From a virus: DNA of 64,000 nt. Under the pieces are notes generated by a model. The model was not told the origin of the DNA. It saw only the letters and a program-made list of their open reading frames with translations, and searched no databases. The stretch spans positions 32,001 through 96,000 of IMG/VR virus record IMGVR_UViG_3300042904_000308, one strand, 5' to 3'. Both the position numbers and the translations under genes were made by a program. Of the stretch, positions 46,151 through 54,646 are shown piece after piece (positions within the stretch are counted from its first letter, which is position 1; each line of letters starts with the position of its first letter).

Positions 46151-47627
46151 AGGTGAGGCCCAGGGTCGGGCCTCGATGCTTACTTGACTTCCGTCGTGAC
46201 ACTGCGAACGGTGAGTCCCTTGAACCAGTCCTTGAGGTCATCGTCGTGCTGGAGAAAACTGGCAAAATCTCTCAGCAGTTCGTCGAAGGGATACGGCTCA
46301 TCCTCGGCCATACCCCACGCCCCCACAGCCTTGCGTTTGTTGTAGGTGACGTTCAGCGTGATCGTTGCGCGTGCCATCGTGTTACCCTCCTACTCGCAGA
46401 TGCAGAACGACTTCATGTTCCCACAGAACAGGCACTCGTCGGGATGAGACTCGGCCAGAATGATGCACGGCACGTCGTAGAAATACTGCGCCAGCACCTT
46501 GACCTCGTCCAGCCCGTCGTACGCGGCCTGAGCCTCCTCCTTCGTCTCGAACGTCGTTACCTTCTCGTCAGTGAGAACCGCGTACCACATTACGTCCATC
46601 GTGTGACCTCCTCGTGTGAATCGCCAGTCCGTTTCTCCCTACCCTTGCAGGGGTACCTTCGTGAGCGAGTACCGCTCCAAGAGAGAGTCGCGATATTCGT
46701 CAATTTCTTCGTCTGTCAGGTCGTCGTAGACCTCGACCTCCTCAGTGACCCCCTCTCCAATCTCAGCGTTCATTGCCGCCACAGCTGCCGCCTCGTTCGC
46801 GTACACCCCCACGACATGCACAATGTTCTCGTCCTGGTTCTCGTACATCAGCACCACTACATCCATCGTGCGACCTCCCGCCTGCTTGTGCAGGCACGTT
46901 CTACCCAACGCCTGAGCCTCTCGCTAGGCATCAGGCAGGGCCAGCCGCTGTCATTCAGCCGCCCTGCTAGGTGCCTACCTCTTACCCTCTACCCTTATCG
47001 GTTGTATGGGGCATCCATGAAGATGACCTGATGGACGCGATTGCAGGCCTGGCACCTGTAATGCCCCTGCCAGTCAGAATCTTCTGGCGGTCCATCGGGC
47101 ATGTCGGGATCATCCCCGTACCAGTCGAAGGTGTGTGGGTCCGCCGCGTAAAACCCGCTACCCTCGGCAGTGTTCCCGCACTGGCAGCGGTAGCCATTCA
47201 TCTGCTGCGCGTAGATTCTCTCCATTGTACCGTGTCTCCTCTCGGTGAAATGCTGCCCCTACCCTTAGGGCAGTTCTTCCCAGTTCTCTTGTTCGATCAT
47301 GCTCAGTCCCGACGCCGCATCCTCAGCCAGCACGTCGGCTGCGATCTTTCGGAACAGCATGTCGGCCTGGGCACCTTCCCGCGTCACTCGCGCACGCACG
47401 TTGTGAACGGCATAGCTGACGTGCAGCTGTTCCGCCACACCCTCCGCGCAGGTTGCCTCTAGCGATTCACGCACCCCAACGCAGGCGTCACGGAGCGACT
47501 CGCCTCCCTTCACGACCCCGACGATCAAACGATCCAGTTCCCACAGGTATCCCGTCACTGCTACCTGATCCATGACTACCTCCTCGAAACGCTGGCGGGA
47601 GCCACGATTGACCCCCGCCCCTGAGCC

Positions 47628-48872
47628 TCACCACTCGATAACAGCCGCCCGAGTGATGTATGTCTGCTTCTGCCCCTTGTACTCGCCGTGCTGCTTCACG
47701 GTCGCCTTCAACACGACCGTGTGCCCCGTGTCGTGCGCCCAGTTGAAGTTATTGCTCGACCGCCAGACGACCACGTTGTTGTCGTCGTCCGTGAATCGGA
47801 TCATGTACGTGATCCCGTAGTCGCCTTGAAGCTCGATGCAGCCCACGACGTTCAGGGTGAACACGTCGCGCTTCCCGACCTCACCAACCCACTCGCTCGG
47901 GTTGGCCTCCTCAGCCTCCCGCTTCCGCCGCTCGACCTCGATGCGCTCGACCTCCCGCAGGTAGGCCTGCACCAGACTCGCCACGATGCCGCTGTTGCGA
48001 CCCGTAACCTCGTCCAGGCTGCTCGCCGTGCGCAGGTTGTAGAGGTAGTCGTTCTGCACGTCGGCGGGGATCGCTCTCGCCCACTCGACGGCCTTCGTCG
48101 CCAGTTCCACGTCGGCCTGCCCGACCGAGAAGCCGTCCCGCTCCATATCCGCGAAGGCGTCCTTGTTGTAGCCCATCGGCCCGACGACCCACACCCACGC
48201 CTGATCCGCAGTCGCCTGCCTGCCAACCCCGTAGCGTGCCTCCGTGCGGGAGAGCCAGCCGTACATGCGGATTGCCGCCGCACAGATCGCCACGTAGCCG
48301 AACGTTTCCTCGCCCCGCTCGAAGCCCCCGCCTCCCCCGCCGAAGCCCTCCTCGGCCTCCTCGCCCAGCCCTCGAAGCTCGTCGAGCCACTGAGACTGGG
48401 CCACCAGATGCTCGGCGCTCGTGCTGCCCACGAAGTCGGCCAGACAGTTCCGACCCACCTGGGCGTAGCGCCCGTCCTCGTGCTGGATCACAAAGACCTC
48501 TTTGCGGTAGCGGTTCGAGTGGCAGTGGTCGCACGTCATGTCGCTCGTGCGGTACCGCTGGGGTACCTCCACGTCGCCAGCCGCTCGGATGATGTTGCCT
48601 GCCTCGGTCGGCTCGATGGTGGCGATGAAGCGCCAGCCGCTGAGACGCACAGGCTCGGCGTTGAGAATCTCGACCTCGTACCACTTCCGTCTGTACGGGT
48701 AGACCTCGATGCCAAGCTCGTTTCTGACGGTCGTCTCGTACTCACGCAGCACCCGAAGCTCGGCCTCCACGCAGCCCAGCTTCCGCGCCCGTTTGTTCAG
48801 GTCGTCCAGCTTGGCCCTCAGCCGCCCCATGTTCACCGCAGGAACAGTGAACGTTCGCTGCTCGTCGCTCAT
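47628..48872 (-). CDS. Conserved phage protein with Zn-binding motif and probable C-terminal OB fold
   Basis: CDHC..NRYRK...VGRNC; WVGEVGKR...LKATVKQHGEYKGQKQTYITR. Confidence 0.7.
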   Translation of the reverse strand: MSDEQRTFTVPAVNMGRLRAKLDDLNKRARKLGCVEAELRVLREYETTVRNELGIEVYPYRRKWYEVEILNAEPVRLSGWRFIATIEPTEAGNIIRAAGDVEVPQRYRTSDMTCDHCHSNRYRKEVFVIQHEDGRYAQVGRNCLADFVGSTSAEHLVAQSQWLDELRGLGEEAEEGFGGGGGGFERGEETFGYVAICAAAIRMYGWLSRTEARYGVGRQATADQAWVWVVGPMGYNKDAFADMERDGFSVGQADVELATKAVEWARAIPADVQNDYLYNLRTASSLDEVTGRNSGIVASLVQAYLREVERIEVERRKREAEEANPSEWVGEVGKRDVFTLNVVGCIELQGDYGITYMIRFTDDDNNVVVWRSSNNFNWAHDTGHTVVLKATVKQHGEYKGQKQTYITRAAVIEW

Positions 48873-53617: not shown

Positions 53618-53953
53618 CTACCCTATGCGCACTTCCCGAGCGTGCCGAACGTCCCATATCGCTAGTTGGTTGTGTGCCTGAGCCAGGGCCACCGCGTCAG
53701 ATTTGCGCCGAACATTGACAACGGGATCAATGTAGACCGTCCCGTCATCGTTCCACGTGCCCCAGGTGCCGCCATCGCTCACCACGCTATCGAGCAGCCC
53801 CGCCAGCGTGGATGTATCGTCAATTCGAGCCGTCAGGCTATTGTCAGACAGCCCGACCATGTAACCGCTCGCATAATCGAGCAGCCCGCTACCGTCGAAG
53901 GTTGCGCCATTGTTGGCGCGGGTCGCCTTGATAATCTCGGATGTCGAGAACAT
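53618..53953 (-). CDS. Conserved phage early protein
   Basis: GGGAG RBS + CACGATG start; GTW..GTVYID...ALAQAHNQLAIWD. Confidence 0.6.
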   Translation of the reverse strand: MFSTSEIIKATRANNGATFDGSGLLDYASGYMVGLSDNSLTARIDDTSTLAGLLDSVVSDGGTWGTWNDDGTVYIDPVVNVRRKSDAVALAQAHNQLAIWDVRHAREVRIG

Positions 53954-54646
53954 CGTGACTCACTCCCACTTGCCGAACGTGCCTACCCTGCGGCCAACCC
54001 GCAGGCACCAGACGGGGCACGCGATACCATGCCCCGTTAGGTGCCTACTGTACTTCCTGCCTCTACCCTAATAGCACGCCACCGATAGAGCCATTGCTGG
54101 CGATGGTGTCGAGAATGTCGCGGATATCGTCTGTCATCGTGCCTACCCCTACGCTAGTACCGTGATACCTCAGTCAGGCATCAGACGGGGCACGCGATAC
54201 CATGCCCCGTTAGGTGCCTACTTTGCCGCCACTTTGTCAGAATCGACCAGGCGGATAGTGCCTACTTTGCCGCCAGTTAGTCAGTTATCCAGCTGGGATT
54301 AGCCAGCGCTATCCGTGAGCGTGCCCTACCGTCTGCAACGGTCGTAACCCGCAAGGTGCCATCGTTCCAATTTGAGACTATCAGCCGCCTACCGTCTGGT
54401 AGACCGAGGCTAGCGGTAGCGTCTGGTATCTGTGCAAACGTGGTGGCATTCTCCCACGCGGTGCGGAGCGTTCTGTACTCGTGAGCGGTGCCGAAACCGT
54501 CGCCGTTGTCGTATCTAACTGTGAACATTGCGCCTACTCCTCGACTATGTGCCTACCTTGCGGCCAACCCGCAAAGTGCCTGCCTATCGGCCATCGCCAG
54601 ACATCAGACGGGGCACGCGATACCATGCCCCGTTAGGTGTCTACCC

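What the first reader, a model, noticed from the sequence alone, without database searches (positions are those of the whole stretch)
46926..54644. Array of GTAG-tagged covarying hairpins punctuating early genes, like a cassette system
Seen: ten intergenic copies of GTAGGCACC-TA-[stem-loop]-CT-GRTGCCT. The inner stem varies in sequence but is a perfect 8 bp in nine copies (CGAGAGGC, TCAGCGGC, CCAGCACC, TCAGAGGC, ACGGGGCA) and 7 bp in one. The 2x2 internal loop is invariant. The 54599 copy has a compensatory outer-stem change (AGACATC/GGTGTCT). Sub-families are near-identical (49350/50970; 52080/53125; 54003/54176/54599). Many copies continue into a second hairpin CCTGCGG/CCGCAGG and another GTAGGCAC just before the RBS, allowing alternative pairing. 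Mismatches read as G-T wobbles on the non-coding strand. Known analogues: GTAG-family REPs recognised by RAYT HUH nucleases, integron attC bottom-strand hairpins, T7 early RNase III sites. Inference: an ssDNA recombination site family for shuffling single-gene cassettes, or an RNA-processing code; no cognate recombinase is visible in this window.
Basis: partly seen in the sequence, partly recalled or inferred. Interest (0 to 1): 0.82.

Follow-up and report, generated by a model that had tools for sequence, protein, structure and literature searches.

The report
Hairpin punctuation of phage early genes
An uncultured soil phage separates the first small genes of its early operon with ten copies of a private, evolutionarily maintained hairpin that most likely marks where the long early message is cut or protected, as RNase III sites do in phage T7; it does not pass the tests for an integron- or REP-type recombination site.

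Summary
Ten elements (GTAGGCACC, TA, covarying stem-loop, CT, GRTGCCT) lie at the stated coordinates, all on the minus (coding) strand. A covariance model finds them nowhere else in the 115-kb phage genome, and none in the relatives, metagenome contigs or 185,579 species genomes that were searched. Seven of the eight inner-stem pairs show changes on both sides, while the lower stem and the 2x2 loop stay fixed.

The elements sit in the first 9 kb of a leftward operon driven by a host-type promoter. The elements contain no promoter and are followed by no U-tract. In 6 of 10 copies the upstream stop codon lies in, or within 2 nt of, the hairpin foot.

Best reading (0.55): intercistronic RNA punctuation. 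Each element forms a helix of about 21-23 rungs with an internal loop, built like the T7 early RNase III signals. No cleavage has been shown.

The integron and REP readings fail their defining features: the phage has no HUH nuclease and no IntI, the end motifs are wrong, and there are no extrahelical bases. Exchange between the direct repeats remains possible as a by-product.

This scan has already noted at least 28 similar arrays in other phages, so the kind is recurrent.

The parts
54599..54644 (-). Element 1, nearest the promoter. The outer stem carries the compensatory A-U pair. The stop codon of the 267-aa first gene lies 2 nt upstream.
   Evidence: (69.2 bits)
54176..54221 (-). Element 2. 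Its inner stem-loop is identical to those of elements 1 and 3. It is preceded by a 44-nt tandem duplication of its 5' flank plus the GTAGGCAC box (54214-54284).
   Evidence: 67.5 bits; family D5
54003..54048 (-). Element 3. The outer stem is fully Watson-Crick (GGTGCCT). It is followed by the second hairpin and a GTAGGCAC box at 53979-53986.
   Evidence: (69.5 bits)
53379..53430 (-). Element 4. The outer stem has a G.U pair on the coding strand. The upstream stop codon TAA lies 1 nt before the element.
   Evidence: (61 bits)
53125..53170 (-). Element 5. The TAG of its GTAG head is the stop codon of the 56-aa upstream ORF. It is followed by the second hairpin and a GTAGGCAC box at 53102-53109.
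   Evidence: (75.8 bits)
52820..52861 (-). Element 6. It is preceded by a ribosome-site-like AGGGTAGAGGAGG motif that has no start codon after it.
   Evidence: 65.1 bits; family D11
52080..52124 (-). Element 7. The TAG of its head is the stop codon of the 48-aa upstream ORF.
   Evidence: (70 bits)
50970..51015 (-). Element 8. The TAG of its head is the stop codon of the 70-aa upstream ORF.
   Evidence: (70.9 bits)
49350..49395 (-). Element 9. The TAG of its head is the stop codon of the 37-aa upstream ORF. It differs from element 8 by one loop base.
   Evidence: (68.8 bits)
46926..46978 (-). Element 10, the most diverged copy. Its inner stem is 7 bp and is followed by a further helix.
   Evidence: (55.2 bits)
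56106..56134 (-). Host-type promoter-like site (TTGACA, 17 nt, TG-extended TAGATT). It is the only consensus-type leftward promoter upstream of the array. The next leftward sites are at 38168 and 32217.
   Evidence: consensus match only
55451..56105 (-). ORF-free leader of about 650 nt between the promoter and the first gene. It holds one solo GTAGGCAC box at 55653-55660.
46180..55450 (-). 29 small ORFs (24-414 aa), nearly all without any family match. The ten elements divide them into groups of 1,1,2,1,1,3,4,7,5 genes.

Best explanation
The elements are cis-acting RNA structures in a long polycistronic early transcript made by the host RNA polymerase.

On the mRNA strand each element folds into an irregular helix of about 21-23 rungs. 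It has a sequence-invariant lower stem of 9 positions (including a conserved C.A mismatch), an invariant 2x2 internal loop (UA opposite CU), and a freely covarying upper stem of 9-12 bp.

The most likely action is mRNA punctuation. A double-strand-specific endonuclease, most simply the host RNase III, would cut at the internal loop. The upstream message would keep the upper hairpin as a 3' stabiliser, and the downstream message would be released. Even without cutting, the hairpin would block 3' exonucleases and insulate neighbouring cistrons.

In 6 of 10 copies the stop codon lies in the hairpin foot or within 2 nt of it, so a terminating ribosome must melt the lower stem. This could tie processing to upstream translation.

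What is shown: the structure, the covariation, the strand, the position, and the lack of a promoter or U-tract. What is inferred: the single transcript, the cleavage, the enzyme, and the link to translation.

As direct repeats of 46-100 nt at 80-98% identity, the elements are also ready substrates for ordinary homologous exchange. That is a likely by-product, not their purpose.
For: - The ten copies all lie on the coding strand, between genes, and nowhere else in 115 kb.
- Seven of the eight inner-stem pairs change on both sides and no inner-stem cell is unpaired apart from one alignment artefact. One compensatory change and one coding-strand G.U occur in the outer stem.
- All copies fold as drawn, at -33 to -57 kcal/mol for the 85-131-nt stretches folded.
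- The helix length and the internal loop match the substrate description in PMC3867540: a 22-bp, two-turn helix; internal loops give single-strand cuts that leave stabilising 3' hairpins; five signals lie in the roughly 7-kb T7 early precursor.
- Consensus promoters lie only upstream (56134) and far downstream (38168, 32217). None lies inside the array.
- The phage encodes no RNA polymerase or sigma factor of its own.
- A canonical U-tract terminator exists elsewhere, at 30721-30698, so the host uses ordinary terminators and these hairpins are not of that type.
- A second, unrelated two-copy hairpin family with a compensatory pair occupies two more intercistronic gaps in the same operon.
Against: - No RNA data exist for this phage, so neither the transcript nor any cut is shown.
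- RNase III recognition in the T7 signal R1.1 lies mainly in the upper stem. Here the upper stem is free to vary and the lower stem is fixed, which suggests a sequence-specific reader other than, or in addition to, RNase III.
- The inner stems contain no G.U pair at all. That is as expected for a DNA palindrome as for an RNA helix.
- Wobble positions do not pick a strand.
- The shared orientation could simply reflect local duplication, since sub-families are neighbours.
- The host is unknown, so the presence of RNase III in it is assumed.
Confidence: 0.55

Rival explanations
1. The elements are boundary repeats for gene shuffling by ordinary homologous recombination, or miniature mobile insertions. 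They would be comparable to the PeSL elements of T4-type phages, with little or no RNA function of their own.
For: - The elements flank orphan genes in what looks like a plastic early region.
- Neighbouring copies are near-identical, which suggests recent duplication or conversion.
- There is a 44-nt tandem duplication that ends at the GTAGGCAC box (54214-54284).
- Three elements follow a ribosome-site-like motif that has lost its start codon.
- A relic of the downstream half, without the hairpin, lies at 52283-52300.
- Single-gene units cluster at the promoter-proximal end.
- PeSLs show that such repeats do mediate exchange and form mini-circles (PMC2839356).
Against: - PeSLs are defined by a sigma-70 promoter plus a terminator. 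No promoter is present here.
- Neutral repeats would not hold an invariant lower stem and internal loop while the upper stem turns over by compensatory change.
- Contigs from four other soil runs gave no joint at an element, but they are too short to judge.
Confidence: 0.13
2. The elements are sites for a DNA-binding protein on double-stranded DNA. This would resemble the inverted-repeat ESAS elements of Cluster K mycobacteriophages or the stoperators of Cluster A phages. The GTAGGCAC box would be the half-site.
For: - The 8-mer is strictly one-orientation (17 against 0) and lies near gene starts and ends, as do SAS sites and stoperators (PMC3203893).
- The phage is temperate: it has a large serine recombinase and a Xer-like recombinase.
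- Each hairpin carries the box on both arms.
Against: - A duplex-binding protein does not explain a covarying inner palindrome or the compensatory change in the outer stem. In ESAS, departures do not preserve pairing.
- The box is absent from the early promoter itself. The switch region carries a different four-copy repeat at 56595-56775, which is the more likely operator.
- In 8 of 10 copies the 3' arm departs from the box at the same base.
Confidence: 0.1
3. The elements are transcription attenuators or terminators. Polymerase modified at the long structured leader would read through them, much as with the antitermination systems of lambdoid phages.
For: - The hairpins are strong and GC-rich, and lie just after stop codons.
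- An ORF-free leader of about 650 nt precedes the operon. A first-stage note, which I did not check, reports boxA-like motifs in it.
Against: - No copy is followed by a U-run on either strand.
- The genome has a canonical U-tract terminator elsewhere.
- Ten terminators in front of the replication genes, with no internal promoters, would be costly.
- From my own knowledge, not checked here: U-tracts are required for intrinsic termination even in high-GC bacteria.
Confidence: 0.08
4. The elements are site-specific single-strand DNA recombination sites for single-gene cassettes, of the integron attC or REP/RAYT type.
For: - The architecture loosely recalls attC: a conserved outer stem, an unpaired central spacer, and a variable inner part.
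- The head reads GTAG, as in REPs.
- The first units behind the promoter hold single genes.
- A Xer-like tyrosine recombinase lies 19 kb away.
Against: - The genome has no Y1/HUH gene.
- The recombinase is not IntI (96.8 bits against a cut-off of 265) and is not adjacent.
- The end motifs and their order differ from RYYYAAC...GTTRRRY.
- There are no extrahelical bases.
- There are only ten copies, all in one orientation, with no inverted doublets.
- The pattern is absent from 185,579 species genomes.
- Five of the nine units hold 2-7 genes.
Confidence: 0.05

Closest known systems
RNase III processing signals of the phage T7 early mRNA (R0.3, R0.5, R1, R1.1, R1.3)
   Same: - Several related hairpins lie between the genes of one long early transcript made by the host polymerase.
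- Each is an irregular helix of about two turns, with an internal loop between a lower and an upper stem.
- No promoter or U-tract is attached.
   Different: - There is no sequence relation.
- The lower stem and the 2x2 loop are invariant and the upper stem is free, which is the reverse of where the T7 R1.1 recognition boxes lie.
- The stop codon is embedded in the foot.
- Cleavage is untested and the host is unknown.
SAS/ESAS repeats of Cluster K mycobacteriophages (PMC3203893)
   Same: - A short one-orientation motif is tied to gene starts in the non-structural half of a temperate siphophage, and sometimes contains the upstream stop codon.
- A subset is preceded by inverted repeats with a variable spacer.
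- The function is still untested.
- The gene-end motif here (GGGTAG followed by GAGG) even resembles the Cluster K 13-mer.
   Different: - ESAS arms do not keep base pairing and were read as DNA-binding sites. Here pairing is kept by compensatory change.
- The spacer here is itself a 26-33-nt hairpin, against 4-13 bp in ESAS.
- The sequences differ.
PeSL cassettes of T4-type phages (PMC2839356, PMC4122927)
   Same: Repeated stem-loop elements flank orphan early genes in a plastic region. As direct repeats they can mediate deletion, insertion and mini-circle formation.
   Different: A PeSL is a composite of a strong sigma-70 promoter and a terminator. These elements hold no promoter-like site and no U-tract.
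Integron attC sites
   Same: Imperfect palindromes with conserved outer and variable inner parts follow genes that all point one way behind one promoter.
   Different: - The core motifs are wrong.
- There are no extrahelical bases.
- There is no IntI and no attI.
- The units often hold several genes.
REP elements and RAYT nucleases
   Same: A GTAG head sits next to a palindrome in an extragenic position. From my own knowledge, REPs close to stop codons affect translation and mRNA stability in E. coli.
   Different: - Here GTAG is paired within the stem.
- There are ten copies in one orientation in a phage, not hundreds in a chromosome.
- The genome has no RAYT gene.
- The pattern is absent from the genome collection.

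Membership tests
RNase III processing signal (T7 early type) | Lies between cistrons of a polycistronic transcript | tested here: met
   All ten copies lie in gaps of 75-139 nt between minus-strand ORFs. The only consensus leftward promoter is upstream, at 56134. The transcript itself is inferred.
RNase III processing signal (T7 early type) | Helix of about 20-22 bp interrupted by an internal loop at the cut site | tested here: met
   The helix has 9 lower positions, a 2x2 loop and 9-12 upper pairs, giving 20-23 rungs in nine copies. The tenth copy has a 7-bp inner stem followed by a further helix. The criterion comes from PMC3867540.
RNase III processing signal (T7 early type) | Cleaved by RNase III in vivo or in vitro | not testable with these tools
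   No RNA run is listed for this phage.
RNase III processing signal (T7 early type) | RNase III is available in the infected cell | not testable with these tools
   The host is unknown. The phage has no RNase III domain.
Integron attC | Core sites RYYYAAC at the 5' end and GTTRRRY at the 3' end | tested here: not met
   The ends read GTAGGCACC and GRTGCCT.
Integron attC | Extrahelical bases in the inner (L) box of the folded strand | tested here: not met
   The inner stem is perfectly paired in nine copies.
Integron attC | Adjacent integron integrase with attI and Pc | tested here: not met
   The only tyrosine recombinase is Xer-like, scores 96.8 bits against the IntI cut-off of 265, and lies 19 kb from the array.
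Integron attC | Cassette content differs between relatives, with breakpoints in the sites | tested here: inconclusive
   No close relative could be fetched. Short contigs from other soil runs show no joint at an element.
REP / RAYT | Cognate Y1 (HUH) nuclease gene | tested here: not met
   PF01797 has no match in the 115-kb genome, while the control genomes do match. The host was not testable.
REP / RAYT | Many chromosomal copies, often as inverted doublets | tested here: not met
   There are ten copies, all in one orientation. The exact pattern gives four chance-level single hits in 185,579 genomes.
PeSL | Sigma-70-type early promoter inside each element | tested here: not met
   No promoter-like site lies within 46000-55400.
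PeSL | Associated with orphan genes in a variable region | tested here: met
   No Pfam family passes its cut-off in the 20 flanking ORFs searched. PHROGs gives one solid hit to an unknown-function family among ten ORFs.
Cluster K ESAS | Inverted repeats whose departures do not preserve pairing (read as DNA-binding sites) | tested here: not met
   Departures here are compensatory. The criterion comes from PMC3203893.
Intrinsic terminator | GC-rich hairpin followed directly by a U-tract | tested here: not met
   No copy is reported by the terminator scan, and none has a T-run on either strand. A canonical terminator is found at 30721-30698.
Any Rfam family | Match to a curated covariance model | tested here: not met
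   Only the tmRNA-like hit at 46030-46150 appears, even at E up to 1.

The most novel reading that the evidence does not exclude
The invariant lower stem and 2x2 loop are read by a dedicated factor, perhaps one of the orphan early proteins, that cuts or clamps the element. The same fixed foot, which begins at the shared gene-end motif GGGTAG, is the joint at which hairpin-plus-gene units are added next to the promoter. One element would then serve both as an RNA processing code and as the junction of a phage gene-cassette system that needs no integron-type integrase.
Probability: 0.1. Interest if true: 0.75.

Novelty: new variant of a known kind. Interest (0 to 1): 0.45.

Why it matters
Repeated, covarying hairpins between phage early genes have been characterised properly only for T7-type phages. 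This scan now finds them in many unrelated uncultured phages, each lineage with its own sequence.

This copy is a clean case. It has ten members and strong covariation. The stop codon is built into the foot. The same operon carries a private gene-end motif.

If the elements prove to be processing signals, they would give a simple rule for splitting phage early operons into expression units, and a compact part for building synthetic operons. If a phage-specific reader exists, it would be a new RNA-protein pair.

The element also marks where orphan host-takeover genes begin and end. That helps annotation of genomes in which nothing else is recognisable.

Tried and rejected
- **Near-identical phage DNA:** none in GenBank phages.
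- **Element pattern in IMG/VR:** no match.
- **Close protein relatives in IMG/VR:** none for the 414-aa early gene or for PolA.
- **Alignment-based searches:** these reached only distant phages (at most 39% and 45% identity). Model R1 found nothing in 80 such loci or in five whole records.
- **Closest record:** it is 82.8 kb, 68% complete, with PolA at 45% identity. It has no repeated 9-mer above 7 copies.
- **Genome-collection scan:** four chance-level hits.
- **The look-up of encoding contigs:** The 49-kb contig with 76% PolA identity, and the other contigs carrying the identical 414-aa protein, could therefore not be read.
- **Sequencing runs:** no RNA holder is listed. The five DNA holders are all soil metagenomes.
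- **Laid contigs:** they are short and break at the repeats. No joint lies at an element. One related contig joins 46365 to 47275, at gene boundaries rather than at an element.
- **Alternative pairing of the 3' arm:** not above chance.
- **Paralogy among the flanked genes:** none.
- **k-mer screen of 80 distant loci:** it found tandem repeats and shared ribosome-site linkers, but no comparable hairpin family.
- **Rejected by direct reading:** phage-polymerase promoter (no polymerase or sigma factor); CRISPR-repeat mimic (the stems vary); ToxI-like antitoxin repeats (the copies are not tandem).
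Full report
**Setting.** The window is bases 32001-96000 of a single 115,172-bp virus record. GC content is 58%.
- The tail tape-measure, portal and terminase genes lie on the plus strand near the contig ends.
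- The replication genes (PolA, DnaB-like helicase, primase, ribonucleotide reductase) lie on the minus strand at window 3000-30000.
- The phage carries a large serine recombinase (genome 24423-26072) and a Xer-like tyrosine recombinase (genome 106018-107106), so it is probably temperate.
- It has no near relative in GenBank phages. The best PolA match there is 33% identical.
- Its DNA occurs in soil metagenomes from five studies.
- GC skew changes sign near window 55000. A non-coding stretch of about 2 kb (55451-57400) holds promoter-like sites in both directions. The array therefore begins at the start of the leftward unit.

**The observation.**
- The alignment shows an 11-nt invariant head, a variable hairpin and a conserved tail.
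- A covariance model built from the ten copies scores them at 55-76 bits and finds nothing else in the genome.
- Pair counts are clear. 92.4% of cells are paired, against 32-39% when partners are slid. Eight of 17 pairs change on both sides, seven of them in the 8-bp inner stem. No shuffle of 500 reaches the observed covariation.
- The outer stem of the 54599 copy carries a true compensatory change.
Its argument from wobbles is not. The coding strand has U.G at pair 6-58 in nine copies and G.U at pair 8-56 in one, and C.A at pair 12-52 in eight. The other strand has the mirror image. Neither strand is favoured.

**Anatomy.** All genes here are on the minus strand. I placed 29 ORFs of 24-414 aa with ribosome-binding sites between 46180 and 55450.
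- The elements occupy ten of the longer intercistronic gaps (75-139 nt). Most of the other junctions overlap or are 2-59 nt long.
- In four copies the TAG inside the GTAG head is the stop codon of the upstream gene. In two more copies the stop lies 1-2 nt before the head.
- The head is an extension of a wider gene-end signature. 13 of the 29 early ORFs end in glycine, against 8 of 86 long ORFs elsewhere (p = 8e-5). 14 of 29 stop at TAG, against 27% elsewhere (p = 0.04). This gives GGGTAG followed either by a ribosome site or by the rest of the element.
- Units between elements hold 1,1,2,1,1,3,4,7,5 genes, and spacing grows from 173 to 2424 nt away from the promoter.
- Five copies continue into a conserved second hairpin and a further GTAGGCAC box 2-25 nt before the ribosome site. 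Three more copies carry only a variant of the box.
- The idea that the 3' arm switches partner is not supported statistically.

**What the elements are not.**
- *Promoters.* The only consensus-type leftward promoter-like sites are at 56134, 38168 and 32217, and none lies in the array. The phage has no RNA polymerase or sigma factor of its own.
- *Canonical terminators.* No copy has a U-run, while a textbook terminator stands at 30721-30698.
- *Any Rfam family*.
- *REPs.* There is no Y1/HUH gene, the ten copies share one orientation, and the exact pattern is absent from 185,579 species genomes except for four chance-level hits.
- *attC sites.* The core motifs are wrong, there are no extrahelical bases, and there is no integron integrase. 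The Xer-like protein scores 96.8 bits against a cut-off of 265 and lies 19 kb away.
- *PeSLs in the strict sense.* PeSLs are defined by a promoter.

**What they most likely are.** On the mRNA strand each element is a helix of about 21-23 rungs. A conserved lower stem with a C.A mismatch is followed by an invariant 2x2 loop and a 9-12-bp upper stem.
- This is the build of RNase III substrates as reviewed in PMC3867540. There, a two-turn, 22-bp helix is the ideal substrate, internal loops restrict cutting to one strand, the cut leaves a 3' hairpin that stabilises the upstream RNA, and five such signals divide the roughly 7-kb T7 early precursor.
- The position fits: the elements lie between cistrons of a host-transcribed early unit, densest near the promoter.
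- A second, unrelated hairpin family with its own compensatory pair sits in two further gaps of the same operon. This argues that a hairpin in the RNA is what is wanted at these junctions.
- I therefore read the elements as intercistronic RNA punctuation, with RNase III-type cleavage as the most likely act. Confidence is 0.55.
- Weak points: there are no RNA data and the host is unknown. The fixed part is the lower stem rather than the upper stem where the R1.1 recognition boxes lie, which leaves room for a sequence-specific reader.

**Recombination.** Several details show that the region has been rearranged at or near the elements:
- sub-families are neighbours;
- a 44-nt tandem duplication ends at the box (54214-54284);
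- three elements follow a ribosome-site-like motif with no start codon behind it;
- a relic of the downstream half lacks its hairpin.

Direct repeats of this length and identity will recombine. A PeSL-like role in shuffling orphan genes is therefore plausible as a consequence. Nothing points to site-specific chemistry.

Contigs from other soil runs are too short.

**Comparison and novelty.**
- The closest described systems are the T7 early RNase III signals (same build and position, function unproven here).
- Next are the SAS/ESAS repeats of Cluster K mycobacteriophages. They share the genomic grammar and even a similar gene-end motif, but ESAS arms do not keep pairing and their function is still untested.
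- Notes from this scan list at least 28 other windows with covarying hairpin arrays between phage early genes, including stop-codon-anchored ones in soil phages. Their follow-ups reached the same analogy. None shares sequence with this array. These notes are unverified. They lower the surprise but do not add evidence.

I rate this a new variant of a known kind. It is a new sequence family with an unusual fixed foot that holds the stop codon. Interest is 0.45.

Noticed in passing
window 46030-46150 (-): A miniature tmRNA. It matches both ends of the Rfam tmRNA model (72.5 bits, E 6e-27) but has only about 40 nt where the model has about 292. It is therefore a tRNA-like domain without a normal tag-coding part. 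ARAGORN does not call it. It lies just downstream of the hairpin array in the same transcription direction.
   Followed up: partly
window 44120-54069 (-), e.g. 45801, 46986, 49787, 50945, 51780, 52872, 54060: A gene-end and ribosome-site motif, AGGGTAG(AGG). It occurs 21 times on the minus strand and 2 times on the plus strand in the genome, and 17 of the minus-strand copies lie in the early region. It usually contains or follows the upstream stop codon. 13 of the 29 early ORFs end in Gly. It resembles the 13-mer start-associated sequence of Cluster K mycobacteriophages.
   Followed up: partly
window 47590-47625 and 51455-51482 (-): A second, two-copy intercistronic hairpin family. Each copy is preceded by the decamer GAGGCTCAGG and followed by AGCGT. 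It has at least one compensatory pair between the copies.
   Followed up: partly
whole genome; window 10277, 12835, 24541, 28041, 39766, 46527, 46911, 47620, 49372, 50992, 51488, 53407 (-) and others: The decamer GAGGCTCAGG occurs 17 times on the minus strand and 6 times on the plus strand, far above chance. It lies inside three of the hairpins and next to others, and also inside coding regions. Its meaning is unknown.
   Followed up: no
window 55451-57400: A non-coding control region of about 2 kb between the divergent units. It holds a four-copy repeat (ATGTGAACGAG-like) at 56595-56775, promoter-like sites at 56134-56106 (-), 56232-56259 (+) and 56821-56848 (+), and a CTAG-rich, ORF-free leader of about 650 nt before the first leftward gene.
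   Followed up: partly
window 54214-54284 (-): A tandem duplication with a 44-nt period, covering a 27-nt stretch that ends in GTAGGCAC. One copy continues into element 2. The other stands alone.
   Followed up: no
genome 106018-107106 (-) = locus L285:1462-2550; genome 24423-26072 (-): The phage has two recombinases. One is a 362-aa Xer-like tyrosine recombinase beside the terminase genes. The other is a large serine recombinase of about 549 aa. Neither lies next to the hairpin array.
   Followed up: partly
window 47628-48872 (-): A 414-aa protein of the unknown-function family phrog_2319, with invariant Cys, His and other residues. It is widespread in large phages of Vibrio, Salmonella and soil bacteria. 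It is the only broadly conserved gene inside the array.
   Followed up: partly
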